Below, in pieces: positions 13,406-32,000 of a DNA stretch of 32,000 nucleotides (positions are counted from its first letter, which is position 1; each line of letters opens with the position of its first letter). Both the position numbers and the translations under genes were made by a program. The DNA comes from an uncultured archaeon (GTDB lineage Archaea > Asgardarchaeota > Thorarchaeia > Thorarchaeales > Thorarchaeaceae). Under the pieces are notes generated by a model. It was not told the DNA's origin, did no database searches, and saw only the letters and a program-made list of their open reading frames with translations. Location of the stretch: assembly GCA_964648855.1 (NCBI GenBank), contig CAZYLT010000004.1:17432-49431 (forward strand), given 5' to 3'.

Positions 13406-14041
13406 GTGTCAAAATTGTCTGAGAAGTATAACTCCGAGGAATCGGAGGAGGAGTCAAATATGGAGCTGAATCAAGAGGAATCGGAGGAGGAGGAGGAGGA
13501 ACCTTCTAAGGCAATCTTCGGCAAGACAAAAGCAATTGTTGACAAAAAAGATGCTGATAGAATTTCACAGCAAGGATTCTATGGAGAGAGGTTACCAAGT
13601 GGAGAACTAGAGCTATCTTCTATTGAAACACTTCATCTGATTGAACGAAGTCGGATTGTAGTTGAGGACCGTGCTGGGAATATCATGGACGCAGAAGACA
13701 TTGTGAGTAAAGTTTCCCAAAGGGAAAAAACTCTCTGGAGTAAGTATCTTGTATTTCGTGACCTTAGAAGTCGCGGTTATGCTGTTAGATCAGGATTCGG
13801 TTCAGGTATTGGGTTTAGAGTATATGAGAGAGGTGACAAGCCAGGAAACTCCGTTGCAAATCAGTTGGTATACGTCTTGAAGGAGGCCGACCCCATATCG
13901 CTGAACGAGCTAGATTTGGTAACGGAAACAGCTGCTACGTCAAGAAAAGAACTTGTTTTTGCGCTGGTTGATCAAAATGGGGAGGTCAACTATTACACTG
14001 TAGCAAGAACTGAATTGCAGACAATAGGAGATGGTGAATAA
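13406..14041 (+). CDS. endA: tRNA-splicing endonuclease subunit, probably the non-catalytic (structural) type
   Basis: LELSSIETLHL, YLVFRDLRSRGY, FRVYERG, RKELVFALVDQNGEVNYY. The catalytic His is absent and KYG is replaced by GSG. Alternative start ATG at 13460. Confidence 0.85.
   Translation: MSKLSEKYNSEESEEESNMELNQEESEEEEEEPSKAIFGKTKAIVDKKDADRISQQGFYGERLPSGELELSSIETLHLIERSRIVVEDRAGNIMDAEDIVSKVSQREKTLWSKYLVFRDLRSRGYAVRSGFGSGIGFRVYERGDKPGNSVANQLVYVLKEADPISLNELDLVTETAATSRKELVFALVDQNGEVNYYTVARTELQTIGDGE
13436..13492 (+). repeat. 18-bp direct repeat GAGGAATCGGAGGAGGAG (13436-13453 and 13475-13492)
   Basis: Read directly; encodes the duplicated EESEEE in the acidic N-terminus of the endonuclease subunit. 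Confidence 0.8.
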
Positions 14042-15318
14042 TGAGGAAAGATTGGATTGATGATGATAATTATGAGGAAGAGATAGTCACTCTGAACGCG
14101 TTCTTTGATGACCATACGATGAGTGTACATCTTGTAGAAAACAATCCGCCTCGTGCAAAACGGGGTTCGCCAGGAGATTGGAGTCTAGTAAAACTCTCTG
14201 ATAGACTTCTTACACATGAAGAGTTGGACACGCTTGCCAAGGCAATAATGGAAACTGCAACGTATGACAGAGAGTCATTCATCGAAATTGAAGAAGATGG
14301 TGCGGCAGTTGTGCAGCTGAGAAACTTGCGAATAGCAATTGCAATGCCACCCTTTGCTGACAAATATGAGATATCCGCTATACGACCTATTATTAAACTC
14401 TCTATGGATGACTACCATCTTAGTTCTAAACTTATGAAACGACTTGAAACACGAGCCGAAGGAATACTCGTAACAGGGTCACCCGGCTCGGGAAAGAGTA
14501 CCTTTTCTGCGGCATTAGCCGAATTCTATAGTTCCAAAGATAATATTGTAAAAACACTGGAACAACCGAGAGACTTGCAAGTGGATGATGAAATAGTACA
14601 GTATTCACCACTTGATGGAAGTATGGAGAAGGCAGCTGATATCTTGCTACTAGTTCGTCCTGATTATGTAATATATGACGAGCTGAGAAAAGATGCAGAT
14701 TTTCAAGCGTATTCTGATTTGAGATCCGCAGGCGTTGGCATGGTCGGCGTGGTTCATGCAGGCTCCCCAATAGATGCGATTCAGAGATTAATGTTGGGAG
14801 GTCGTGTTGAACTCGGTCAACTGCCCAGTACAGTAGACACTGTTATTCATATCGAAGCTGGGTTGGTTGCCAAGGTAGTTTCGCTTTCGCTTAAGGTAAA
14901 ATTGCCAACGGGTATGAGCAGTTCGAAGAGAGACCTAGCTAGACCGGTTATTGAGGTAAGAGATTTTGAGCAGGGATGGCTAGAATATGAGATCTTTACA
15001 TTTGGTGGCGAGAAGGTAGTTGTACCCGTCAAAGGCGGTAGTCCAAGAACTGATAAACAGGATAGATCGAGATACAGGGGGGTTCCTGGACAGACTGTGC
15101 CGGTTTCTGTCAGTTACTCCAAGAAGAAAGTGAAAGTGTATGCTGGCAGAAAGTACTCCAAACAACGGTTGGAGATTTATGCAGATGATATCTATCTCTT
15201 CACCACTGTAATCGGCAAAAATGGTGAGAGCTCGATTCGCATTAAGACTAGGCAGGGTAGCATGTTAGTTGATGCTATGGAAGAGGGTGCTGAAATCTCC
15301 GCAAGGGTAGCACAATAG
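14041..15318 (+). CDS. PINA-like (PilT/VirB11-class) ATPase lacking the PIN and KH domains
   Basis: FFDDHTMSVHL...RAKRGSPGDW (post-PIN segment of PINA); Walker A GSPGSGKST; KTLEQPRDLQ; LLLVRPDYVIYDE; GVGMVGVVHA; C-terminal YLFTTVIGKNGE. Confidence 0.85.
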   Translation: MRKDWIDDDNYEEEIVTLNAFFDDHTMSVHLVENNPPRAKRGSPGDWSLVKLSDRLLTHEELDTLAKAIMETATYDRESFIEIEEDGAAVVQLRNLRIAIAMPPFADKYEISAIRPIIKLSMDDYHLSSKLMKRLETRAEGILVTGSPGSGKSTFSAALAEFYSSKDNIVKTLEQPRDLQVDDEIVQYSPLDGSMEKAADILLLVRPDYVIYDELRKDADFQAYSDLRSAGVGMVGVVHAGSPIDAIQRLMLGGRVELGQLPSTVDTVIHIEAGLVAKVVSLSLKVKLPTGMSSSKRDLARPVIEVRDFEQGWLEYEIFTFGGEKVVVPVKGGSPRTDKQDRSRYRGVPGQTVPVSVSYSKKKVKVYAGRKYSKQRLEIYADDIYLFTTVIGKNGESSIRIKTRQGSMLVDAMEEGAEISARVAQ

Positions 15319-17972: not shown

Positions 17973-18129
17973 TCTACTTTGTTTTGTGGATTACTCATCG
18001 GAGTGCTGTAATACTACTATTACAGAAGGAGAGTAGAAAGTGGGATATGCATATGGTTGAGGCTCTGATGCAAAAGGGGATGAACGTTAAGGATATCCTT
18101 AAATCGATACTGTAGAAAGTGAGGTCGAG

Positions 18130-19341
18130 GTGCATCGATTGCCTGGTAGTACTGACGCAAAAGAAGATGGTGGCGTCGAGGACTCTTCATATTCACAGAG
18201 CTATGCTCGACATTTGGAGAGACGTCTCAGAGCACTGGAAACGGAAAAACAAATTCTCCATGCTGAATGCAGTAGGCTTGAGAAGGAAACCCAGACTCTT
18301 AGGACGGAATTGGAGAAGTTAAGGCAATCGCCATTGATTACGGCTACAATTGTTGAAATGCTTGAAGACGGTCGAGCAATTGTGAAGAGCTCAACTGGAC
18401 CCAATTTTGTTGTCCATGTTTCATCTTCTATATCGAGTGACAAACTACAATCTGGAATGCGTGTTGCACTCAATCAAAGATCTTTTGCAGTAACACAAGA
18501 ACTCCCTCCATCTAGAGACCCACTCATTCGTGCAATGGAGATTGAGGAAAAGCCTCAGGTTTCATATGCAGACATAGGTGGATTAGAGGAACAACTTACA
18601 GAGATACAAGAAACTGTTGAGTATCCTCTACTAAAACCGGAGTTGTTTGAACAAATCGGAATTGAACCTCCTAGAGGGGTTCTACTTACAGGCCCACCCG
18701 GAACAGGTAAGACCTTGAGCGCCAGAGCGGTTGCACATCAAACAAACGCGACATTCATTCGTGTTATTGGATCAGAGCTTGTTCAGAAGTTCATTGGAGA
18801 GGGTGCTCGTTTGGTACGGGAGATATTCATGCTGGCCAAAGAGAAATCACCAGCAATAGTCTTCATTGATGAGCTTGATGCTGTAGGTTCGCAAAGGTTG
18901 GATATTGCAACATCTGGAGACCGAGAAGTTCAGAGAACCTTAATGCAGCTTTTGAGCGAGTTAGATGGTTTCGAAAGCCGAGGACAGGTAGCAATTTTGG
19001 GTGCTACAAACAGACCGGATATTTTAGATCCGGCCTTACTCCGCCCCGGACGATTTGACAGAATCATAGACTTTCCAAAGCCTGACGAAAAAGGTAGAAA
19101 AGAAATATTCAAGATTCATACGAGGCCATTATCTGTAGATTCTGATGTTGATTACAATCAGCTTGTTTCTGCAACTCGTGGAACTACCGGAGCTGACTTG
19201 AAAGCAATTGTCACTGAGGCAGGAATGTTTGCAATTCGAGCTGAACGAGGATACGTGACTCAGACTGATTTTAGGATGGCAATAGAGAAAGTTAGAAATC
19301 GAGGAAGAGCTAACGAAATTAAGTCCAACATGTACGGCTAA
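18130..19341 (+). CDS. pan: Proteasome-activating nucleotidase
   Basis: N-terminal coiled coil, OB domain ([11 protein letters not shown]), [36 protein letters not shown]-terminal HbYX motif MYG. The start may be TTG at 18139, after GAGGTG. Confidence 0.96.
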
Positions 19342-19377
19342 AATCCGTAATCATTTTACCTGCATGAAGTTGACACC

Positions 19378-20199
19378 ATGAAATATCATGATTTCTTAGT
19401 GAAGGAGATTGGGAATTCTATAGAGGACGTTTCTAAGATTCCAAAAGGGTATCAATTAATCGGCCATGTGGTGCTACTGAATATTGACTCGGACGTGATG
19501 TCTTTGGCAGAGGTTATTGGAGATTTGACATTGACATTTGAATCTAGAGCTGAATCTGTTGCAGTAAGAATGGGACCAACATATGGTCCAAAGAGGATTC
19601 CCAATTACAGGCTAGTGGCAGGTAGCAGGAACACGACAACAACTCATATTGAGAATGGGATAAGATTCAAGCTCGATCCGTTGCGAATCACATTTTCTCG
19701 GGGCAACGTGAATGAGAGGATTCTTCTCCCTGAGCAAGTGAGTTCAAAAGAATATGTTGTTGACATGTTTGCTTGCGTTGGTCAGTTTTCATTGCCGATG
19801 GCTGTTCATTCTGGAGCAGAGGTCTTAGCGATTGAGATTAATGACTTGGCATATGATTTCCTATGCCAAAACATGAGGATGAATGAGGTCCATGCGAACA
19901 TGAAGGCAGTATTGGGGGACTGCAGAGATGTACCCTTTGGCAATGCCAATAGAATTGTGATGGGATATCTACATGACACGATTGATTTTCTACCCCACGC
20001 ACTGCGTGGGTTGCAATCACAAGGAGGAATTATTCATATGCACAGCTTGGTCTATGCTAATGCTGAGGACGAAATTCGTAATACAATTATTACGACATCA
20101 TCGGAGTTTGGATTCATAGCAGAAATTTCATCTAGGTTAATTAAGAAGTATTCACCAGGGGTTTACCATAGGGTCTTTGATATCAAACTTTTTTCCTAA
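19378..20199 (+). CDS. taw2: Trm5/TYW2 (Met-10) family SAM-dependent tRNA-modifying transferase, most like Taw2
   Basis: HIENGIRFKLD, FSRGNVNER, VVDMFACVGQFSLP, ANRIVMGY, KKYSPGVYHRVFD. Confidence 0.78.
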   Translation: MKYHDFLVKEIGNSIEDVSKIPKGYQLIGHVVLLNIDSDVMSLAEVIGDLTLTFESRAESVAVRMGPTYGPKRIPNYRLVAGSRNTTTTHIENGIRFKLDPLRITFSRGNVNERILLPEQVSSKEYVVDMFACVGQFSLPMAVHSGAEVLAIEINDLAYDFLCQNMRMNEVHANMKAVLGDCRDVPFGNANRIVMGYLHDTIDFLPHALRGLQSQGGIIHMHSLVYANAEDEIRNTIITTSSEFGFIAEISSRLIKKYSPGVYHRVFDIKLFS

Positions 20200-20281
20200 C
20201 AGATAACGTAATTGTTTTATCGCTTGATAGAAATGGACATAGTGTAGTATCTGAATATGAACAGATTATGAGGAAAAAACA

Positions 20282-20659
20282 ATGGGTTTCAGAGGATTAT
20301 CACCTAAGCAACTTGCTAGAATGATGAAGAAGATGGGTATAGAGCAAAAGGACATTGATGGAGTAAACGAGGTGATTATTCGATTTTCTGACAAGGAATG
20401 GGTGATAGAGAATCCGCAAGTAGCCCTTGTAAAACAAGCTGGCAATGAATCGTATCAAGTCAGCGGCTCGAAAACTGAAAGAAGCATTACAAAGGGTGGC
20501 AAGGCAGCTCCGATTGAAGAAAAGAAAGTCGAAATACCTATGGAAGATGCTGCACTCGTTGCTGATCAAACTGGAACAGATATTCAAACCGCTAAGCAAA
20601 CTCTTGAGGAAACAAAAGGTGATTTGGCTGCGGCCATATTAAAATTGAGAAAAAGCTAA
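20282..20659 (+). CDS. nac: Nascent polypeptide-associated complex protein
   Basis: PKQLARMMKKMGI, VNEVIIR, NPQV, and C-terminal UBA-like EDAALVADQTG...GDLAAAILKL. Confidence 0.95.
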   Translation: MGFRGLSPKQLARMMKKMGIEQKDIDGVNEVIIRFSDKEWVIENPQVALVKQAGNESYQVSGSKTERSITKGGKAAPIEEKKVEIPMEDAALVADQTGTDIQTAKQTLEETKGDLAAAILKLRKS

Positions 20660-20835
20660 GCAGATTCCTCTTCTTGCATACGGTACCTCGTTCCGCAATC
20701 TCTTTTTTTGAATCGAAGATGTTCCAGGCTTGTGGCCTTTGTTCCAAGCAGGATTCGCTCATAGTTTTCAATTTGTATAAATTACAACTTGCTGAGGCAA
20801 ATGCTCGAGATGTATGAAGTCCTAAAACTATTATG

Positions 20836-21114
20836 TTAAGAAACGATGAAAACTAAGGCTGCAATGAGCACGACAAATATGCATATTGCAAGCCACTCTT
20901 GCACATATTTCTTTACTGCCTTTGGTTTGTCTTTAATCTGGCCAGTTGTGATGAGAGTCATTGCAGATATGAACAGAAACGCGAATGGAAGAGCAGCAAC
21001 AGAGTTAGTAAGAGGAGTATCTAGAAGAAATATTATCCCCACAAGCGCGCCAAAAATAAGGAAAGTCAAAATCATCATTGAATTAAGGACTCGTCGAATT
21101 CTATCTAGATTCAT
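20836..21114 (-). CDS. Small membrane protein with three TM segments
   Basis: Three hydrophobic segments in 92 aa; GAGGAGA RBS. Confidence 0.7.
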   Translation of the reverse strand: MNLDRIRRVLNSMMILTFLIFGALVGIIFLLDTPLTNSVAALPFAFLFISAMTLITTGQIKDKPKAVKKYVQEWLAICIFVVLIAALVFIVS

Positions 21115-21263
21115 TCTTTTGATCTCCTCAAGGGATGAATACAGGTTTCTGTCCCCGGTAACTCTCTCGCAGTTTGCAATTGCTCAAAAAGGTTCCGTAT
21201 CGTTAAAGCATGCACAAGAGCTGATTTCTCTCGCAATATTTATGTAGGAAGAAACATGAGATG

Positions 21264-21292
21264 TTGTAATACAAACACTACTTGTGATACAA
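21264..21292. promoter_or_regulatory. Tandem palindromic operator-like sites TTGTAATACAA (21264-21274) and TTGTGATACAA (21282-21292)
   Basis: Two 11-bp palindromes 18 bp apart, ending 13 bp upstream of the AAA+ ATPase start. Confidence 0.7.
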
Positions 21293-21305
21293 AGGAATTG
21301 AAACA

Positions 21306-22280
21306 ATGACAATTGCAGTTCACGAATCCGCTCTGATTCGTCATTTCAATACTCGAAAAGAAACGTTGCGTGCGTGGGAGGAGAAGATTGGTGCAAGATT
21401 TTCTCCATTCCGAGGATTCAAAATGCCGGACTCAAGGCTCTATGTGGAACACCCTGATTTTCTTGACAGTATTGTGGATCTAATAATAACCAATGAACGT
21501 CATATTTTCCTTAGAGGTCCTGTTGGTTCGGGAAAAAGTACTCTGATGCTGTTGGCATTGAGAGACCTTCCCACACTGGCTGATAGAAGAGGAAATAAAT
21601 TCGTCACAGGTTACGTTGGAATGACAGGTCTTTATGAGAAACAAATGGCGGCAGCCATTGCCGACTCATTGAGAATCAAATATAGACGATCGTGGGAGTC
21701 TTCTCAAATTATAGAAACTGTTGCAAAAGAGTGTGTACGGCGCTATATAGAGGAACAAAGCAGAACTGCTCTTTTCATCGAGGATGTTGCAGATAACCAA
21801 GAGGCTGCTTTTCATAAGCTAAGATACCTTGCTGATCTTCCAACAGAAGAAATGAAGGATGAATATCCTAGGGCATTAGACGAGCCAATAGTCACACTGG
21901 TAATGAGTGGAACTGCAGAGTACTGGAATGCGATGCTGAATTTTCTACCTCAAATAGCTGACAGAACTGAACCTCTGGATATTCCGAAGCTGGAAGATAG
22001 AAAGGCAAGAGAATTCATCGGAAGGAGAATAGCCTATGCTAAAGGGAAAATCGATAGCTTTGACCATACAGATTTTGAGGTGTACCCTTTCCATGAGAAA
22101 GCTATCGAAGTGATTAACGATGCAGCAGGAGGTAATCCACGAGACATTCGCATGTTGGCTAGAGGTTGTCAACAGGTTGCAGCTGAAAATCTTCGAGAAA
22201 GTGGTAGTCCTGAAATTAACGTGGAAATCGCTCGATTAGTGTCAGAAGCGTATGCAAGTATACTGAAGGAGGTAAGATAA
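21306..22280 (+). CDS. ExeA/AAA_22-like AAA+ ATPase, stand-alone
   Basis: RFSPF N-terminal motif; Walker A GPVGSGKS; Walker B-like ALFIED; TLVMSGT; PQIADR (Arg finger); GGNPRDI (sensor II). Confidence 0.85.
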   Translation: MTIAVHESALIRHFNTRKETLRAWEEKIGARFSPFRGFKMPDSRLYVEHPDFLDSIVDLIITNERHIFLRGPVGSGKSTLMLLALRDLPTLADRRGNKFVTGYVGMTGLYEKQMAAAIADSLRIKYRRSWESSQIIETVAKECVRRYIEEQSRTALFIEDVADNQEAAFHKLRYLADLPTEEMKDEYPRALDEPIVTLVMSGTAEYWNAMLNFLPQIADRTEPLDIPKLEDRKAREFIGRRIAYAKGKIDSFDHTDFEVYPFHEKAIEVINDAAGGNPRDIRMLARGCQQVAAENLRESGSPEINVEIARLVSEAYASILKEVR

Positions 22281-22574
22281 TTGAGTCTCTTAGGAAAATA
22301 TAGGAAAGAAGAGGAGAAACGGGATAAGGACACAGAAGAAGAATCTGTGGAGCCCCCTGCTGAAGAAGCTGAGGAAAAAGGAGGCGTTGCCGTTCCAAAC
22401 AAAGAAAGGAATAGTCCGATAATGTCCTTTAGCGTTAGTACAGATCTGAGGTCCTGCCTCCAAGCTGTAAGAACAGAACGGGCAATTAATCTGAGTATGT
22501 GGGTCGAACGCAAGCTAAGAGATGCAGTTCAGCAAGAGTTTCCAAATATCGCCGGAATTCATCTCGAAGGCTAA
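22281..22574 (+). CDS. Small protein with acidic disordered N-terminus and C-terminal ribbon-helix-helix-like domain
   Basis: TTG directly follows the ATPase stop, with GGAGGT RBS at 22268-22273. IMSFSVS (alternating strand), TDLRSCLQAVRTE (helix), INLSMWVERKLRDAVQQ (helix). Confidence 0.75.
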   Translation: MSLLGKYRKEEEKRDKDTEEESVEPPAEEAEEKGGVAVPNKERNSPIMSFSVSTDLRSCLQAVRTERAINLSMWVERKLRDAVQQEFPNIAGIHLEG

Positions 22575-22582
22575 AGCAATAA

Positions 22583-22593
22583 TTGTATTACAG
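22583..22593. promoter_or_regulatory. TGTAWTACA site (TTGTATTACAG)
   Basis: Lies in the 27-bp gap between two convergent genes. Confidence 0.55.
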
Positions 22594-22601
22594 GCTTTCA
22601 G

Positions 22602-23990
22602 CTACCTCGCTTTATAGAGTGAATATGAAGTGACTCGTTCCATGCATAACGCGGCAAGTGAAGGATCGTCATAACAAGGAATTCGATTCATCTCAAGCAA
22701 ATCCTTTCCAGGTTTACCTACATCTCCTGAAAGCCAAACACCAACAACAGGTTTGTTATTGTTTGCAGTCCTAATCCCCTCCAAGGTACCAGCCGCATGC
22801 TCTGTTTGAGTCATTCCTGCAAAAGTCGGGACTCCACAGATTACCAAGAGCATGTCAACATTGTTATCTTCCAGCATTAGCTTTGTTGCTACTTTGTATT
22901 CTCTCCTTCCTCCACTTGCTACGACATCAACAGGATTTTCAACGGATGCCATTGGTGACATTGCTTGTTTCATTTCTTTCGTTGTGGATTCTTCAAGTGT
23001 AGGTATCTCGAGCCCCAACGCAGAAGCGGCATCGGTTGCTAATACTGCAGCACCACCTGTATTACTAATAATACCAATATTACGACCTTGTGGCAGAGGT
23101 TGATAGTCAAATAATTTGCATATTTCCAAGAAAGAGTCAAAAGTTGGTGCTGAAACGCAACCGGCCTGCTTGATTACCCCATCAAATAATTGAGGAGATC
23201 CGGCCAGAGACCCTGTATGACTTAGGGTTGCTCTGCTTCCCGCTTCGCTTTTTCCACCCTTGAGAATGACAACTGGTTTCTTGCTCGATACAAGTTTCAG
23301 GGACTCATAAAGAGCACGGCCGTGTTCAACACCCTCTACATATACAGCGATAACAGACGATTTTGGGTCCTTGCTGAAATAGTCAAGTAGCTCAATGAAT
23401 TCAACATCGGCTGCATTTCCAATACTTGCGAATTTGCTCATCCCTATTCGTTTTGCCCGTGTTGTATATATCAGCATCCCGCCAAGGGCCCCACTCTGAG
23501 AAATTAGAGCAATATTGCCTCTCTCCGGCATCATCGTAAATGTGCCATTAAAGAGACGACTGTTGGAAACACCAACGCAATTCGGACCAATGATGCGTAC
23601 TTCATGCTTCTTGGCTTCTTCCACAAGATACTCTTCCAGATTTTTTCCTTCCACACCGGTTTCACTGAAACCTCCAGAGATAATTACGGCATTGCGAGCA
23701 CCCGCTTGTTTCACATCTTCCATTAAATTGGGGCAATATTTGGCTGCAACGGCAATGATGACGAGGTCAACTTTCTTAGGTAAATCTATGAGACTAGGAT
23801 ATGCCTTTACCCCCAGAACCTGAGTTCTACTGCGAGTTACAGGATAAACTTCTACCTCCGATGCAAGTAGGTTCATGAGAATTGAGTTTCCTAATTTTCT
23901 GTAATCAGCAGAAGCTCCGACCAAGGCAACTCTATTTGGATTGAAGAATTTGTCAATCTGTATTGCATTGGAATCTAATGTATCGCTCAT
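22602..23990 (-). CDS. acdA: Acetate/acyl-CoA ligase (ADP-forming), alpha subunit
   Basis: FFNPNRVALVGAS, IISGGFSETG, IIGPNCVG, ISQSGALG, phospho-His SHTGSLAG, SNTGGAAVLATD, NPVDV. Confidence 0.92.
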   Translation of the reverse strand: MSDTLDSNAIQIDKFFNPNRVALVGASADYRKLGNSILMNLLASEVEVYPVTRSRTQVLGVKAYPSLIDLPKKVDLVIIAVAAKYCPNLMEDVKQAGARNAVIISGGFSETGVEGKNLEEYLVEEAKKHEVRIIGPNCVGVSNSRLFNGTFTMMPERGNIALISQSGALGGMLIYTTRAKRIGMSKFASIGNAADVEFIELLDYFSKDPKSSVIAVYVEGVEHGRALYESLKLVSSKKPVVILKGGKSEAGSRATLSHTGSLAGSPQLFDGVIKQAGCVSAPTFDSFLEICKLFDYQPLPQGRNIGIISNTGGAAVLATDAASALGLEIPTLEESTTKEMKQAMSPMASVENPVDVVASGGRREYKVATKLMLEDNNVDMLLVICGVPTFAGMTQTEHAAGTLEGIRTANNNKPVVGVWLSGDVGKPGKDLLEMNRIPCYDDPSLAALCMERVTSYSLYKAR

Positions 23991-24039
23991 GGGAGTGGTT
24001 CACTGCCGCCACAGTTTTAATTCTGTTGTGGTTTTAAGA

Positions 24040-24059
24040 ATGTATTACAAATAATACAA
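24040..24059. promoter_or_regulatory. TGTAWTACA site (ATGTATTACAA) plus degenerate copy (ATAATACAA)
   Basis: Intergenic, upstream of acdA. Confidence 0.55.
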
Positions 24060-24079
24060 TATATATTCCATTAACCTGG

Positions 24080-25294
24080 TTAATAGTGTTCTAGAAAACG
24101 TCTGAGTTCCTTGCAGCCCTTATGAATACTATCTACTAGATTCTTGAGTAATGATTTGGTTTCAGGAAACTTGGTTTTTATCCGGTTTAGTGATTGTATT
24201 GCGTAGTTTCTTAGGTTGTCATTCTTTGTTGCGCAAATTGTTTCAGCCAAAAGGCTAACTGCAGATTCATGATAGTAATTGCCTAACGCAATTATTCCCA
24301 AACTCGAGATACGATAATCATCTGCTGCAACCATTTTTTCCAAAGATAAGACAGAATCGATGGATCGTATAAACAAATGATTGGATAACTGCGTGGTTAT
24401 CTTGGAATACTTCTGCGAGTTGTATTCTGAATTGAATTCATCAACGGATTCTTCAAGTAAATAGTTCATAAGTGGTATTGCATTTCGACTTCCAAGCTGT
24501 GCGAGCATCATAGTGTCCTGGTCAATCATTGCTTTTAGCAGTGATTGATAATCATCATTCAAAGGGGGAGATAGATTCTTTGTGAGTCGATTTTTCATGA
24601 TTTTATCCCGGACACGTTGTGATACTGGTAATACAGATAATACCATGTCGAGTGTCTCTTTGTCGGCTTTGCTCCCAGGTATTCCGAGGGTGCACAGAGC
24701 AATTCTTCCATATTCTGTATACCATAATGATGAGATGTCGATCGAGTGGGATGGAGAAATCAAGGAAATTGACGAGAGATTATTCTCCATCTCTTGATGG
24801 ATTTGATTTACGAGATTGTTTTCAAGGCAAGACGCCGCAGCATCGGTATCAATGAAAAGGAAATTGGATTTCTTCAAGTGATGGTGAAGTTCTTCATTGA
24901 CTATTTTCTTGAATAGTATCTCTGCATTCGCAATTGAATGTGCATCATGGAGTTTTGAGATTATGGCTGAAGTTTCCATGTCTATTGCTTCTATTCCCTG
25001 ACAACCGAATATAGAGAAAAGTACTTCACGGAACTTGAGCGGTTCTATTCTTCTTGTCTTTTTTCCTGTCAGTGGTGGAATCTCATAATCCCTATTCATA
25101 GAATTTTCCAGATAGTCCAGAGCTACGTCCCAGCTGTCCTTTAGTTCAATACCAACAAGGAAGTCAATTAGATCTCTAACGCGCCTCTCTCCTATGGAAT
25201 TCGTTATTGCCTTACTGAGTTCAACTTGTGATAGCTGCTGGATTTTCTTTCGTACCTGTTCCTGCAATCGTTCGCGTGCCTTACTGTAATCCAA
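24080..25294 (-). CDS. Hypothetical alpha-helical protein with C-terminal HEAT/PBS-lyase-like repeats
   Basis: DDYRISSLGIIALGNYYHESAVSLLAETI...NLRNYAIQSLNRI. TTG at 25294 is preferred over 25414 because the extra 40 codons run through an AT-rich palindromic region. Confidence 0.7.
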   Translation of the reverse strand: MDYSKARERLQEQVRKKIQQLSQVELSKAITNSIGERRVRDLIDFLVGIELKDSWDVALDYLENSMNRDYEIPPLTGKKTRRIEPLKFREVLFSIFGCQGIEAIDMETSAIISKLHDAHSIANAEILFKKIVNEELHHHLKKSNFLFIDTDAAASCLENNLVNQIHQEMENNLSSISLISPSHSIDISSLWYTEYGRIALCTLGIPGSKADKETLDMVLSVLPVSQRVRDKIMKNRLTKNLSPPLNDDYQSLLKAMIDQDTMMLAQLGSRNAIPLMNYLLEESVDEFNSEYNSQKYSKITTQLSNHLFIRSIDSVLSLEKMVAADDYRISSLGIIALGNYYHESAVSLLAETICATKNDNLRNYAIQSLNRIKTKFPETKSLLKNLVDSIHKGCKELRRFLEHY

Positions 25295-25368
25295 TCTCTG
25301 TTCACTGCCAATTTCTATATGCCGATTGCATATTAAAACAAGGTCAGTATTCAAGATAAGAAAGCCGT

Positions 25369-25393
25369 TTATTATTTGTATTACAAATAATAA
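25369..25393. repeat. 25-bp perfect palindrome TTATTATTTGTATTACAAATAATAA centred on TGTATTACA
   Basis: 12-bp arms around the central T at 25381, in an AT-rich gap. Confidence 0.85.
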
Positions 25394-25759
25394 TGAACTC
25401 CGTACAATTCTCAATCTATCTAATTTATTATTATTAAATTATTACATATAATAGTGGCAAAAAGGCTTGTTCTATGATTAGAACTATGTATCAATGTATT
25501 CCTATATAGAGTGAGTGTGTCGTGAAGTAATGATTGAATGCTGGTGTCGAAACTTGTTTCATAAGCCACAGATCCCGGCCTTCATTGCTATCTCTATCTC
25601 CTCATACAAATATACCTCCAAGTAGATACAATGTAGGTACGACTGTGCAGAACAGCTCGTCACTTATGAGTTCGGTCACAAAACACGACACATTCGTGCC
25701 AATTTTTTTCACGTTCACTAGAGCCTGTGTACTAATACACATAGTGTTTCCAAAACACG

Positions 25760-26308
25760 CTATTCGGATCCAGACTGTTTTGAGAGTTCAGTCTTTAGAT
25801 TAAGTGGGGATGCCAACTCATCGAGTGCGGAAATAATAGTTTCTTCTGCGGCTCTATGACTCTCAAGATCCTCTTCAGTTAGTTTTTCCCTTCCTGCCAG
25901 TACTTCCCGGATATGTCTATAGTCGGCTATCTTGGCTGCAACTTCCTCAAATGGCCGGAATATAGCAATTTCAAAGAGACCGAGGTACCCTAACAAAAGC
26001 ATGGTGTAGATACTTTTTGTGATATTTTCACGAGCTTGTTGGAGCGTCCTATTGAATGCACCTCTTGAAACACCCTTGCCCTCCCTAGTTGTGCGCAATG
26101 AAGCCTTTGCGTCATATGGGATGTGCCCACCTACATTGTCTTCGACGACCAAATCAATTAGGAGTGTTTCCAATTGTGCCTCTGTTAGAAGTGAGTTTTG
26201 TAGCAATAATTTCATTATTGGTTCCTTTAACACCCTCTTGGTTCCTTGGGATGCCTTCTTCATCTCTTCGAAATTTACGTTGCTGGTATCTGGACTCATG
26301 ACCTTCAC
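25760..26308 (-). CDS. Hypothetical protein with probable HTH
   Basis: NSLLTEAQLETLLID...YDAKASLR...GVSRGAFNRTLQQARENITKSIYTMLLLGYLG. The G-V-S-R-G-A-F-x-R-x-L-x-x-A segment resembles a sigma-region-4/Tfx-type HTH. Confidence 0.75.
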   Translation of the reverse strand: MKVMSPDTSNVNFEEMKKASQGTKRVLKEPIMKLLLQNSLLTEAQLETLLIDLVVEDNVGGHIPYDAKASLRTTREGKGVSRGAFNRTLQQARENITKSIYTMLLLGYLGLFEIAIFRPFEEVAAKIADYRHIREVLAGREKLTEEDLESHRAAEETIISALDELASPLNLKTELSKQSGSE

Positions 26309-26474
26309 CTAGTCTTAGGCGGAAAGTGAATTTTCGAAAACGTACTCATAGCCTTTTATTTTTATTTTAGAGGCTTATGAGTGATTTTTGTTAAACTGGC
26401 TCTTTGTTACTCTCGACGGATACAATTTTGTATACGCTAGATGGACAATAAAGATTTTGTTCCGATTTCACTTA

Positions 26475-26485
26475 CTGTATTACAC
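26475..26485. promoter_or_regulatory. TGTAWTACA site (CTGTATTACAC)
   Basis: Intergenic, between the two putative DNA-binding genes. Confidence 0.55.
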
Positions 26486-26488
26486 ATA

Positions 26489-26911
26489 TTACTTGTAAGG
26501 AAGAGTCCATCCCTGTTTCTCGGGAACTTGTACAAAAGCAAGGATTGTGTTTCCGCGAACCTCATCGAATTTGAAGATTCCAAACAAATACCGATTGGAG
26601 TTCATGTCGAATTCCATTCTTTTTCTGTTGAGAAGGTGATCGAATATCTTTCTACAGTGCTTGCGTATCTGTGAAAATAGATTTCCAAATTTCCTGCGTT
26701 GAGATGGTCTAATGCCCCACCGTTCCAGAATAAATCGATTGGCCAGGCTATTACTAGATATCAAAATTGATTTTTTTCTCTTCTTTGAGGTTTCAGCGGT
26801 TTCGACGAGTACTTGCCGGAGACAATCGGGAATATTCGCCAGGATTGAGGGAGTAACTTTGGGTTCTCTCCTTGGTTTTGGATGAGGGGGCCTTGAGGAT
26901 GTCAATGTCAT
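26489..26911 (-). CDS. Basic hypothetical protein, possible winged-helix DNA-binding protein
   Basis: 140 aa, rich in K/R. Three predicted helices followed by beta strands (YLFGIFKF, TILAFVQV). Confidence 0.7.
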   Translation of the reverse strand: MTLTSSRPPHPKPRREPKVTPSILANIPDCLRQVLVETAETSKKRKKSILISSNSLANRFILERWGIRPSQRRKFGNLFSQIRKHCRKIFDHLLNRKRMEFDMNSNRYLFGIFKFDEVRGNTILAFVQVPEKQGWTLPYK

Positions 26912-26978
26912 TCACAATAAGATATGTATTATGCCTTAAGAAAACCTACATGTTCGTACCAATGTGGTCTAGTAATAT

Positions 26979-26989
26979 TTGTAATACAA
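26979..26989. promoter_or_regulatory. TGTAWTACA site (TTGTAATACAA)
   Basis: Perfect 11-bp palindrome in the divergent promoter region upstream of hypF. Confidence 0.6.
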
Positions 26990-27054
26990 CGCTACTGATA
27001 CAGAAACAATTTGCCACTTCATGGTATTAATATCCACAAAGCGATGTCAAACCA

Positions 27055-29421
27055 TTGAGGTTTCCTAAACTGAGTGTCAGAGCTAAGATCCACATTAATG
27101 GAATTGTACAAGGTGTTGGATTTAGGCCATTTGTGTATAGGGTAGCAAAAGGATTATCCTTGACGGGATATGTTTTGAATCTAGGAGATGCAGGGGTCGA
27201 GATTGTTGTTGAAGGAAAGAAAACGAAAGTCGACTCATTGCTGAATGAGCTGAAAGAGAATCCTCCATCCATTTCGAGGATCGAACGCCTAGAAACCGAA
27301 TGGTTACCGGCACAGAATTCATTCGATGGCTTCTCGATAATCAAATCCTCGACAGAAAAAACTGGTAACGCGGAACCAGTGATTCCACCCGATATTGCAG
27401 TCTGTGACACTTGTGTTGAAGAGCTATTTAATCCTCAATCGCGATGGTATCTTTATCCATTCATTTCGTGTGCAGCTTGCGGGCCAAGATATTCTACTAT
27501 CACTGATCTTCCATACGATAGACCTCAGACAACCATGATTGATTTTCCGCTTTGTGATACTTGTAATACTGGTTATACAGATCCACTGGATAGAAGGTAT
27601 CATGCTCAAACAACAGCCTGTGAGAATTGCGGTCCTACATACCAGCTATTCAATGATACAGGCGACATCATTGCAAACGAAAAAGCAGTAAAAAGAGCGG
27701 CAGGGCTAATAGAGTCTGGATCAATTGTAGCGGTACAAGGTATATCCGGTACTCATCTAGCCACAGCAGTCAGAAACCCAAGGCCAATCAATAGACTTCG
27801 TTTATTGAAGATGAGAGAACAGAGACCCTTCGCAATTATGGCTAGAAACAAATCAATTGTTGAGAGTGCTTTCAACCCGTCGGAGAATGAATTAGATGAT
27901 CTTGTCTCTTGGAGACGCCCTATTGTTCTTGTTAGAAAGAGAGCATCAAAAGATGCTACGAAAATAATACCACAGGAGTCATTGGATAGCATAGCGCCGG
28001 AACTGGACACCGTAGGTGTTATGCTGCCTTACGCTCCTTCTCACCATCTGCTCTTTCACCACATGGATGAACCTGCTATTGTTTTGACTAGCGCCAATCC
28101 TACAGGTATACCCATGTACATCGATTCAAAGAAAATTCGAAAATGCCTGTCTGGAATAGCTGACTACTTTTTGGTACATGATAGAAGAATCTGGCAAAGA
28201 GCTGACGATTCTGTAATCAAGTATGTAACTGGTGATAATTCAGTCTTCATTAGACGATCAAGAGGTTATGTGCCAGAACCAATTCCAATTTCTTATCCAG
28301 GTGATAAACTTAATCTTGTTGCGGTGGGTCCAGAAGAAAAAGCTACAGCATCGATTCTAAAGTCCACCAGTATATATCCGACTCAATACATTGGTGACAC
28401 TGACCAATTGGAGAATATGGAATTTCTTACGGATGCATATCAACATCTGATGGGTCTCATTGGGGTGAAGGAACTTGATGGTATCGCTTGTGACTTACAC
28501 CCAGAGTTCCTGAGTACGGAACTTGCAAAGCGCGTTTCCAAAGAGAAGGACATTCCCTTGATTCAAGTCCAACATCATCATGCTCATCTTGCCTCCATCC
28601 TAGTTGACAACCAGCTGTCTACTGATACAAGTATTATTTGTATTACAGCCGATGGTTATGGCTATGGGCCTAATGGCGAAGCATGGGGAGGAGAGGTCCT
28701 AGTTGGGGATGCCAGGCAATTCTCTAAGTTCGGAGGTTTGACTCCCCAGTTGTATGTTGGTGGCGATTTATCAGCCAAATACGCTGCACGGCCGTTTATG
28801 GGAATCCTAAGCGTCGCATTAAGCAGAGAGAATTTGTTTGGATACGTACGTGATGCGAAGATTGCAGCTGATGTATCCCTGAATGAAGACACCTTTGATC
28901 AGATGCTCATTGCCCGTGACAAAAACATAAACACGATTAAAAGTAGCAGTACCGGTCGCGTTTTAGATGCAGCCGCATTCGCCCTTGGAGTCTGTACCGA
29001 GAATAGCTATGATGGCGAGTGTCCAATGAAGTTGGAATCAATCGCAGCACCAACAAAGCTATCGATTGAACCACAAATAGTATCCTCATATGGAAGTCCT
29101 CAACTTGACACAGAACATCTTCTTCTTCGACTCATTAAGATGCAGGAACAAGGAGAGAAAAGGTCACATCTAGCCATGGCAGTACAACAAGCAGTGGGGA
29201 CAGGTTTAGCTAGAATTGCAGTCCAAGCAGCTCATGACCATGGAATACAACAAGTTGGATTCTCGGGTGGAGTCGCCTTGAATAGAATCATTACAAGAGC
29301 AATAATTTCCGAATTGAGTCATCATGAACTTGAGCCTCTTCTTCAGGACTCAATTCCTCCTGGAGACGGCGGTATCTCAGTTGGGCAGATAGCTGTTGCA
29401 GCAAGTAGACTCAATCAATAG
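27055..29421 (+). CDS. hypF: Carbamoyltransferase HypF (hydrogenase maturation)
   Basis: GIVQGVGFRPFV acylphosphatase domain, CxxC zinc fingers, RRYHAQ, RRSRGY, CDLHP, HHHAH, DGYGYG, PPGDGGISVGQ. Confidence 0.97.
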   Translation: MRFPKLSVRAKIHINGIVQGVGFRPFVYRVAKGLSLTGYVLNLGDAGVEIVVEGKKTKVDSLLNELKENPPSISRIERLETEWLPAQNSFDGFSIIKSSTEKTGNAEPVIPPDIAVCDTCVEELFNPQSRWYLYPFISCAACGPRYSTITDLPYDRPQTTMIDFPLCDTCNTGYTDPLDRRYHAQTTACENCGPTYQLFNDTGDIIANEKAVKRAAGLIESGSIVAVQGISGTHLATAVRNPRPINRLRLLKMREQRPFAIMARNKSIVESAFNPSENELDDLVSWRRPIVLVRKRASKDATKIIPQESLDSIAPELDTVGVMLPYAPSHHLLFHHMDEPAIVLTSANPTGIPMYIDSKKIRKCLSGIADYFLVHDRRIWQRADDSVIKYVTGDNSVFIRRSRGYVPEPIPISYPGDKLNLVAVGPEEKATASILKSTSIYPTQYIGDTDQLENMEFLTDAYQHLMGLIGVKELDGIACDLHPEFLSTELAKRVSKEKDIPLIQVQHHHAHLASILVDNQLSTDTSIICITADGYGYGPNGEAWGGEVLVGDARQFSKFGGLTPQLYVGGDLSAKYAARPFMGILSVALSRENLFGYVRDAKIAADVSLNEDTFDQMLIARDKNINTIKSSSTGRVLDAAAFALGVCTENSYDGECPMKLESIAAPTKLSIEPQIVSSYGSPQLDTEHLLLRLIKMQEQGEKRSHLAMAVQQAVGTGLARIAVQAAHDHGIQQVGFSGGVALNRIITRAIISELSHHELEPLLQDSIPPGDGGISVGQIAVAASRLNQ

Positions 29422-29469
29422 TAATACACGTAATACAGCTATTATTCTGCCATTGGTAAATGGCTATAG

Positions 29470-30084
29470 CTATTGATGAATTTGTTGCATTCCTAACTCG
29501 AAAGCACGGATGTTGATGTCCTCATAACGTCCCGGGAATGTTTCTCTAATAGTCTTCTTTGCTACGTCTTTCGATATGCCTGTGAAACCCAATGCGATTA
29601 TTGCGCCGAACATAACCATGTTCATGGCTCTATCACTACCCGCCTTTTTTGCTAAATCTATTGCATCGAACTCAATGAGATTCTTGGTGAATCGTTTGAT
29701 TGATTTCACAATCTCATCATGCGTTGGATAGTCAGCTTTGCCCATCGACACTGCTATGGGGTAAACCAAATTGGAGTTAATGAGTACACTGCCCTCATTG
29801 CTAATCAATTCTATTTCGCGAAGAGTTTCAATTGGTTCGAAACCAACTAGGATGTCTGCCGTGCCGGGATCAACAATAGGTCCACTGACGTCAGGTCCGA
29901 TGCGAACAGTGCAGATTACGTGACCACCACGTTGAGCCATCCCATGTATTTCTCCAACTCGGACATTTTTGGACTCGCCGAGGGCTGCCTTTGCTAAGAT
30001 TTCTGCAAGGGTCAAAACACCCTGCCCTCCAACGCCAGAGATAACAACATTGACTGTAGCTGTATTACTAGTATTACTATTCAT
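29470..30084 (-). CDS. iorB: Indolepyruvate:ferredoxin oxidoreductase beta subunit
   Basis: SGVGGQG, GEIHGMAQRGG, FEPIETLR; adjacent to iorA. Confidence 0.93.
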   Translation of the reverse strand: MNSNTSNTATVNVVISGVGGQGVLTLAEILAKAALGESKNVRVGEIHGMAQRGGHVICTVRIGPDVSGPIVDPGTADILVGFEPIETLREIELISNEGSVLINSNLVYPIAVSMGKADYPTHDEIVKSIKRFTKNLIEFDAIDLAKKAGSDRAMNMVMFGAIIALGFTGISKDVAKKTIRETFPGRYEDINIRAFELGMQQIHQ

Positions 30085-31983: not shown

Positions 31984-32000
31984 AACCTAATTCACCACAG

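What the first reader, a model, noticed from the sequence alone, without database searches (positions are those of the whole stretch)
21264..22593. Candidate new ATPase + RHH + DNA-site module: ExeA-like AAA+ ATPase coupled to a ribbon-helix-helix protein and bracketed by palindromes
Seen: a tightly coupled two-gene operon (TAA at 22278-22280, TTG at 22281, GGAGGT RBS). It encodes a stand-alone AAA+ ATPase and a 97-aa protein with a short basic N-terminal peptide (MSLLGKYRK), an acidic disordered linker and a strand-helix-helix C-terminus. Two tandem palindromes sit at the promoter and one follows the last stop. Known: NTPase + RHH adaptor with a flexible N-terminal tail + repeated sites is the layout of type Ib partition systems (ParF/ParG) and of Sulfolobus SegAB. 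Those use deviant Walker-A ParA ATPases, not ExeA-type AAA+ proteins. No secretion genes or transposase, the usual ExeA/TnsC contexts, are nearby. Inference: a chromosome-segregation or cell-cycle control module built on a different motor class.
Basis: partly seen in the sequence, partly recalled or inferred. Interest (0 to 1): 0.85.

Follow-up and report, generated by a model that had tools for sequence, protein, structure and literature searches.

The report
AAA+-driven partition-like cassette beside Asgard origin
Next to the replication origin of this Asgard archaeon sit a very conserved ATPase gene, a small DNA-binding gene and the genome's only field of a short phased repeat; the same gene pair sits on small archaeal plasmids that lack the usual ParA motor, so it is probably an undescribed kind of DNA-segregation machine, though nobody has tested it.

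Summary
Observation confirmed, and the system is larger than reported. The Thorarchaeota operon encodes a 324-aa ExeA/TnsC-like AAA+ ATPase (79/87 genomes of the order, mostly 77-87% identical) and a tailed RHH protein (behind it in 61/61 intact loci). The palindromes belong to a 14-kb field of GTAWTAC heptads phased at 9 bp (17 sites vs 0.9 expected; half inside genes). The field ends at an ORB pair just right of the window and recurs in 10/10 genomes of the family. In five other Asgard families the pair lies 1-11 kb from cdc6 or ORBs. Related ATPase + small-protein + repeat cassettes occur on archaeal plasmids, often beside orc1/cdc6. None of five cassette plasmids of 30-164 kb has ParA, while 7/7 cassette-free controls do; four larger cassette plasmids do carry ParA. 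Best reading (0.62): a partition or origin-positioning system with an AAA+ motor. Main rival (0.22): replication-initiation control. It is not a member of type Ib or SegAB (no ParA). DNA binding, ATPase activity and partner binding are untested. I found no paper describing it. This scan noted the same system earlier on other Asgard genomes.

The parts
21306..22280 (+). Stand-alone AAA+ ATPase, ExeA/TnsC-like (no winged helix): Walker A GPVGSGKST, Walker B variant LFIED (E-D instead of D-E), putative sensor 1 T203, arginine finger R220, sensor 2 R279
   Evidence: Pfam AAA_22 below cut-off; motifs invariant or nearly so (role assignment from AAA+ knowledge); AF2 pLDDT 89; Foldseek ORC2/Cdc6/TnsC; Atlas ExeA-type TM 0.70-0.74
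22281..22574 (+). Tailed ribbon-helix-helix protein: conserved N-terminal peptide MS[LV]L[GK]KYR, variable charged linker, RHH at about residues 46-90
   Evidence: Follows the ATPase in 61/61 intact loci; family profile vs orthologue L095 hhalign 98.4%, which passes the RHH_1 cut-off; AF2 helices 54-67, 71-86
21239..21246 (+). TATA-like box of the operon, preceded by a BRE-like stretch
   Evidence: Sequence; an equivalent box is conserved upstream of the operator in relatives; function inferred
21264..21292 (.). Operator/centromere array: three heptads in 9-bp phase (21266 exact, 21275 degenerate, 21284 GTGATAC), overlapping the expected transcription start
   Evidence: Exact heptad upstream in 57/57 loci
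22583..22593 (.). Heptad site after the RHH stop, between convergent genes
   Evidence: Exact heptad within 150 bp downstream in 48/61 loci
18008..30077 (.). Field of phased GTAWTAC sites: exact heptads at 18008, 20078, 21266, 22585, 23059, 24042, 24628, 25378, 26477, 26981, 27563, 28640, 29421, 29430, 30062, 30071; it continues to C4:49928-49995, beyond the window
   Evidence: 15 of the 16 paired sites of the genome lie in C4:35439-49928; near-heptad at +-9 bp in 34% of neighbour positions in the field vs 0 of 360 outside
25760..26308 (-). Third conserved gene (182 aa, no Pfam or NCBIfam hit, motif GVSRGAFNRTL) that stays within about 5.5 kb of the cassette in Asgard chromosomes; possible accessory or origin factor
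   Evidence: tblastn hit in 21 of 22 Asgard regions, none on two cassette plasmids; 28% identical to the L095 neighbour
31984..32000 (.). Left edge of the 957-bp intergenic gap holding the predicted origin; the inverted ORB pair (C4:49694 minus, C4:49843 plus) lies about 260-430 bp beyond the window end, a further ORB at C4:53984
   Evidence: origin predicted from ORB motifs only

Best explanation
A three-part DNA partition (origin-positioning) system with an AAA+ motor. Shown: gene pair, site field, origin linkage, RHH homology, AAA+ fold, plasmid distribution. Inferred steps: (1) RHH dimers bind the GTAWTAC heptads cooperatively in 9-bp-phased pairs and triplets, repress their own promoter, and mark about 14 kb beside oriC as a centromere. 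(2) The ATP-bound ATPase oligomerises on non-specific DNA, as TnsC and MuB do, using the two-helix insert before Walker B. (3) The RHH tail (invariant K-Y-R) contacts the ATPase and triggers hydrolysis or release, which the altered Walker B would otherwise keep slow. (4) Local depletion of DNA-bound ATPase around each newly copied origin region moves sister origins, or sister plasmids, apart.
For: Single copy and mostly 77-87% identical in 79/87 Thorarchaeales genomes; five genomes lacking it also lack neighbouring hypF, pointing to assembly gaps. Genome-unique phased field in 10/10 family genomes, from about -3.5 to +12 kb, ending at ORBs. In-gene sites 72 observed vs 19.3 expected under synonymous recoding, which fits a structural rather than promoter role. 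Pair within 1-11 kb of cdc6/ORBs in five other Asgard families, including two single-contig chromosomes. The repeat word changes with lineage (GATATC-type in f15/f16). Related ATPase + small protein + upstream/middle/downstream repeats on plasmids: pNG100, Halomarina, pMETEV01 and two Natrinema plasmids have it next to orc1/cdc6, the position held by parA + small gene on a Methanosarcina plasmid. No ParA on 5/5 cassette plasmids of 30-164 kb or on one provirus; ParA on 7/7 cassette-free cdc6 plasmids of 49-117 kb (Fisher p 0.0013). ParA-like genes of five Asgard genomes lie away from the cassette and show no ParB neighbour in the flanks read. Known partition systems all combine NTPase, centromere and adaptor (PMC8987985).
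Against: No function has been measured. Four large cassette plasmids (230-599 kb) also carry ParA (all nine cassette plasmids vs controls p 0.034), the samples are small, hand-picked and related. The GTAWTAC field is seen only in Thorarchaeaceae and family f13; Odinarchaeia and f28 have only a few sites near the operon, and G001 (AT-rich sister family) shows no field. The tree backbone is unresolved: one clade of cassette ATPases is not rejected (p-AU 0.64) but not shown. The small proteins of pNG100-type plasmids have no RHH Pfam hit, and the haloarchaeal RHH profile does not align to the Thor one. The cassette was not found in most other Asgard families searched.
Confidence: 0.62

Rival explanations
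1. Replication-initiation or copy-number control. The ATPase is a winged-helix-less ORC/Cdc6-like cofactor that the RHH protein loads beside oriC, where it licenses, times or represses firing (comparable to datA/DARS or SeqA-type control in bacteria, from own knowledge).
For: Best solved-structure matches are ORC2, Cdc6/Orc1 and TnsC. The cassette is next to cdc6/ORBs on chromosomes and on most plasmids. The last site lies inside the origin gap. A sequence-specific non-initiator protein is required at Sulfolobus oriC1 (UBP; PMC12141716).
Against: The ATPases fall outside the Cdc6/RFC group (96/95). The field spreads 14 kb to one side instead of flanking the unwinding element. Two cassette replicons have no annotated orc1/cdc6. 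This reading does not explain why small cassette plasmids lack ParA.
Confidence: 0.22
2. A cell-cycle transcription regulator of the aCcr1/CdrS kind whose regulon happens to be clustered, with the ATPase as a modulator.
For: The operator overlaps the operon's expected start site in 57/57 loci. The aCcr1 box has a similar GTA(A/T)TAC core and aCcr1 is an RHH protein (PMC9976878).
Against: About half of the sites lie deep inside hypF, the acyl-CoA synthetase, the HEAT gene and iorA, or between convergent genes. 15 of 16 paired sites of the genome are in one 14.5-kb stretch, whereas aCcr1 binds promoters genome-wide. aCcr1 is not described with a tail-ATPase pair in the passages read.
Confidence: 0.08
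3. A domesticated transposon-targeting (TnsC/MuB) or secretion-associated (ExeA/GspA) ATPase doing its usual job.
For: Fold and family hits to ExeA/TnsC; databases name it ExeA; a PF00437 ATPase lies 6 kb upstream.
Against: Bacterial ExeA and TnsC form their own clade (99/99) and sit with GspB, PEP-CTERM or DDE-transposase genes. The Asgard gene is single-copy, syntenic and without transposase. The PF00437 gene is not linked in other genomes.
Confidence: 0.03

Closest known systems
Type Ib plasmid partition (delta-omega-parS of pSM19035, PMC9499535; ParF-ParG of TP228, own knowledge)
   Same: ATPase gene then small tailed RHH gene; heptad repeats at the promoter and downstream; likely autoregulation; found on plasmids
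   Different: Motor is an AAA+ protein with a classical Walker A, not ParA; heptads are spaced 9 bp apart in groups of 2-3 over 14 kb instead of four or more contiguous copies; here it is a core chromosomal locus
SegAB-segS of Sulfolobales (PMC8682754, PMC12139799)
   Same: Archaeal chromosomal operon, ATPase + site-specific small protein with an ATPase-interacting N-terminal region, site upstream of the operon; SegB is among weak structural neighbours (Z 3.0)
   Different: [quoted passage not shown]
TnsC / MuB AAA+ transposition ATPases
   Same: Fold (TnsC TM 0.55/0.67), stand-alone AAA+ core; DNA filaments removed by a site-bound partner's peptide (own knowledge) would be the mechanistic model
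   Different: No transposase or terminal repeats; separate clade; vertical, single-copy
ExeA/GspA and PEP-CTERM-associated ATPases (PF13401, TIGR03015)
   Same: Nearest sequence family, far below the TIGR03015 cut-off; Atlas TM 0.70-0.74
   Different: No ExeB/GspB or peptidoglycan-binding domain; partner is an RHH protein
Orc1/Cdc6 initiators
   Same: Best PDB matches; origin-proximal
   Different: No winged-helix domain; outside the Cdc6 clade; true cdc6 genes are present in the same genomes
aCcr1 / CdrS RHH cell-cycle regulators (PMC9976878)
   Same: RHH fold; similar GTA(A/T)TAC core; operator between TATA and start codon
   Different: Sites here form one local field, many in coding DNA; coupled ATPase and tail

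Membership tests
Type Ib partition / SegAB | ParA-type ATPase with deviant Walker A (KGGxGK) | tested here: not met
   Walker A is GPVGSGKST; no ParA family hit; AAA+ fold with lid
Type Ib partition / SegAB | Small RHH adaptor with flexible N-terminal tail encoded behind the ATPase | tested here: met
   the window protein itself has no Pfam hit, the assignment rests on the orthologue
Type Ib partition / SegAB | Centromere of short repeats at or near the operon | tested here: met
   (sequence pattern only)
Type Ib partition / SegAB | Adaptor binds the repeats and its tail stimulates the ATPase | not testable with these tools
   Needs EMSA and ATPase assays
Type Ib partition / SegAB | Stabilises a replicon in vivo | not testable with these tools
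   Only indirect: ParA absent from small cassette plasmids
AAA+ superfamily | P-loop core plus helical lid, arginine finger, sensor 2 | tested here: met
   AF2 model and Foldseek; conserved R220 and R279
AAA+ superfamily | Canonical Walker B hhhhDE | tested here: not met
   ED in Thorarchaeota and f13, DD in f15/f16, DE in Odinarchaeia, f28 and the prophage clade
Orc1/Cdc6 | C-terminal winged-helix domain | tested here: not met
   Protein ends after the lid; PF09079 hits lie elsewhere
Orc1/Cdc6 | Groups with Cdc6 in a tree | tested here: not met
   Separated from Cdc6/RFC at 96/95 and 98
ExeA/GspA secretion ATPases | Linked ExeB/GspB or secretion locus | tested here: not met
   Neighbours are housekeeping genes; PF00437 gene not linked
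TnsC/MuB | Adjacent DDE transposase and element ends | tested here: not met
   None among the 20 window proteins scanned or next to Asgard orthologues
TnsC/MuB | ATP-dependent filament on non-specific DNA | not testable with these tools
   Needs biochemistry or cryo-EM
aCcr1/CdrS regulators | Boxes in promoters of dispersed target genes | tested here: not met
   15/16 paired sites in one field, many in coding DNA

The most novel reading that the evidence does not exclude
A new type of active DNA segregation system, beside the ParA, ParM and TubZ types, driven by an ORC/TnsC-related AAA+ ATPase. It is shared between archaeal plasmids and the origin region of several Asgard lineages, where it serves as the chromosomal centromere machine.
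Probability: 0.55. Interest if true: 0.93.

Novelty: new variant of a known kind. Interest (0 to 1): 0.82.

Why it matters
[quoted passage not shown] Partition systems are classed by motor, and an AAA+ motor is not among the described classes that I could find. The finding names a candidate centromere, adaptor and motor. It also makes them testable without culturing Asgard cells, because related cassettes sit on plasmids of cultured haloarchaea (pNG100 of Haloarcula marismortui) and Haloferax genetics exist.

Tried and rejected
Complex prediction of ATPase with the small protein: no answer, score 0.00 in two runs; not evidence either way. The window RHH protein has no Pfam, NCBIfam or PDB sequence hit. 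The AF2 monomer is weak (pLDDT 64.5, no strand assigned); Foldseek (E above 3) and VIA (Z at most 3.3) give RHH-rich but insignificant lists; Atlas feature hits at 0.90-0.91 include CopG/Arc clusters, a lead only. hhalign of Thor vs haloarchaeal RHH families: no match. No relative of the Asgard ATPase in viral contigs or phage records; one haloarchaeal provirus with the P0149 query. GC skew on contig C4 peaks near the operon rather than showing an origin-type minimum; it follows gene direction and was not used to place the origin. The exact 9-mer TGTAWTACA is a poor marker in GC-rich genomes (G005, G013) and in AT-rich G001; the 7-mer with phasing works better. Monophyly of the Asgard ATPases is neither shown nor rejected (p-AU 0.20). 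Six literature searches aimed at the system found no description of it; the library lacks most subscription journals. No citation for the MuB/ParA analogy was retrieved, so it is own knowledge. Expression data were not examined.

Full report
1. Observation. The window is contig C4:17432-49431 of a Thorarchaeota genome. The two ORFs, the stop-start junction and the GGAGGT box are as described. The first promoter palindrome is near perfect; the other two are imperfect. Comparison with relatives shows that the promoter element is three heptads in 9-bp phase just downstream of a TATA-like box. An exact GTAWTAC lies upstream in 57/57 loci and shortly downstream of the small gene in 48/61.

2. The ATPase. 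It is found in 79 of 87 genomes of the order, nearly always once, mostly at 77-87% identity (68% in the sister family). Five genomes without it also lack the neighbouring hypF, so the region is probably unassembled there. The AF2 model is confident (pLDDT 89): an AAA+ core with two helices between strand 2 and the Walker B strand, a lid, and no winged helix. Solved-structure matches are ORC2, Cdc6/Orc1 and TnsC; predicted-structure matches are ExeA-type proteins and an archaeal cluster. Walker B reads ED in Thorarchaeota and family f13, DD in f15/f16 and DE in Odinarchaeia and f28. In trees the family lies outside Cdc6/RFC, and bacterial ExeA plus TnsC form a separate clade; the backbone is open.

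3. The small protein. It follows the ATPase in all 61 intact loci. The N-terminal peptide and the C-terminal domain are conserved, the linker is not. The window protein has no family hit of its own, but the family profile aligns over its whole length to the f13 orthologue (98.4%), which passes the RHH_1 cut-off. Structure searches were weak. A similar peptide opens the partners of distant ED-type ATPases, and three copies head a KaiC-like protein encoded behind one of them (L099, L101). That suggests a portable ATPase-docking motif (inference).

4. The site field. GTAWTAC occurs 17 times in the best 14-kb window against 0.89 expected; the next best window has 5. A near-heptad sits at plus or minus 9 bp in 34% of neighbour positions in the field and in 0 of 360 outside; 15 of the 16 paired sites of the genome are in C4:35439-49928. 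The same field, from about -3.5 to +12 kb, is present in all ten Thorarchaeaceae genomes examined. About half of the sites are inside genes: 72 observed against 19.3 expected when the proteins are recoded synonymously (the genomes are related, so this is not ten independent tests). Sites deep in hypF or between convergent genes do not fit a regulon.

5. The origin. An inverted ORB pair lies in a 957-bp gap just beyond the right end of the window, 11 kb from the ATPase start, with another ORB at +15 kb. ORBs at the same offsets recur in relatives. The nearer cdc6 is 35 kb away in four Thorarchaeaceae genomes and 10 kb away in the sister family. In five other Asgard families the ATPase is followed by a tailed small protein and lies 1-11 kb from cdc6 or ORBs, including two single-contig chromosomes. 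Family f13 uses the same heptad, f15/f16 a GATATC-type word; Odinarchaeia and f28 show only a few sites. The cassette was not found in most other families of the phylum, including the largest ones. A third gene of unknown function stays within about 5.5 kb in 21 of 22 regions. The origin is predicted from motifs only.

6. Plasmids. Searched with the Odinarchaeia ATPase, the top plasmid hits are archaeal, ahead of bacterial ExeA. On pNG100, a Halomarina plasmid, pMETEV01 and two Natrinema plasmids the order is ATPase, small protein, gap, orc1/cdc6, with short repeats before, between and after the genes. A second haloarchaeal clade lies on a 58-kb circular element with a tail-tube gene and on virus- or plasmid-like contigs, again followed by a tailed protein; two of five of these hit RHH_1. 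None of five cassette plasmids of 30-164 kb has a ParA-family gene, while 7 of 7 cassette-free cdc6 plasmids of 49-117 kb do (p 0.0013). Four cassette plasmids of 230-599 kb have ParA elsewhere, which weakens the contrast (p 0.034 overall). The controls were few and chosen by size.

7. How it most likely works. Shown are the parts, their conservation and their positions. Inferred: RHH dimers coat the phased heptads, repress the operon and mark the origin side of the chromosome; the ATP-bound ATPase coats non-specific DNA as TnsC and MuB do (own knowledge); the tail triggers hydrolysis or release; the resulting gradient separates sister origins or plasmids. I give this 0.62. The main rival, control of initiation or copy number, gets 0.22: it explains the origin linkage and the ORC-like fold but not the ParA pattern or the one-sided 14-kb field. 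A clustered aCcr1-like regulon gets 0.08, an ordinary ExeA or TnsC role 0.03.

8. Comparison and novelty. It works like type Ib partition and SegAB in layout but fails their defining motor test. It is not Orc1/Cdc6, ExeA or TnsC by domain content, context or tree. All well-characterised partition systems need an NTPase, a centromere and an adaptor (PMC8987985); SegA is ParA-type (PMC8682754). I found no paper on this cassette in the searchable library. I class it as a new variant of a known kind, with a 0.55 chance that it is a new motor type of segregation system.

Noticed in passing
L099:1576-2472: A KaiC-like ATPase encoded behind a distant family member (P0123) starts with three copies of a VLSKY[RK]K peptide resembling the RHH tail; an RHH-like 66-aa gene lies upstream. 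Suggests that the peptide is a portable docking motif.
   Followed up: partly
window 25760-26308 (-): 182-aa protein of no known family, kept next to the cassette and origin in all Asgard lineages examined but not found on two cassette plasmids.
   Followed up: partly
window 14041-15318 (+): Stand-alone PF00437 (VirB11/T2SSE-type) ATPase behind the tRNA intron endonuclease; resembles archaeal PINA-type ATPases without the PIN domain (own knowledge).
   Followed up: partly
G000 C4:49414-50371 and 53663-54175: ORB pair and a further ORB lie 20-24 kb from the nearest cdc6 gene, an origin detached from its initiator gene; C4:114106-114128 has ORB-like words upstream of the other cdc6.
   Followed up: partly
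window 1-21000 and C4:50000-80000: GC skew is positive to the left and negative to the right of the predicted origin, the reverse of the usual origin pattern; probably due to gene direction.
   Followed up: no
window 24080-25414, 26489-26911 and 20836-21114 (-): A HEAT-repeat protein, a 140-aa protein and a 92-aa membrane protein of unknown function are syntenic within the field across Thorarchaeaceae.
   Followed up: partly
L156/L157 (NZ_CP100358.1): The 58-kb Natronosalvus rutilus 'plasmid' has a tail-tube gene and no annotated integrase, cdc6 or ParA: probably a plasmid-prophage.
   Followed up: partly
window 27055-29421 (+): hypF stays next to the cassette in most Asgard lineages examined and carries heptads at conserved coding positions.
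   Followed up: partly
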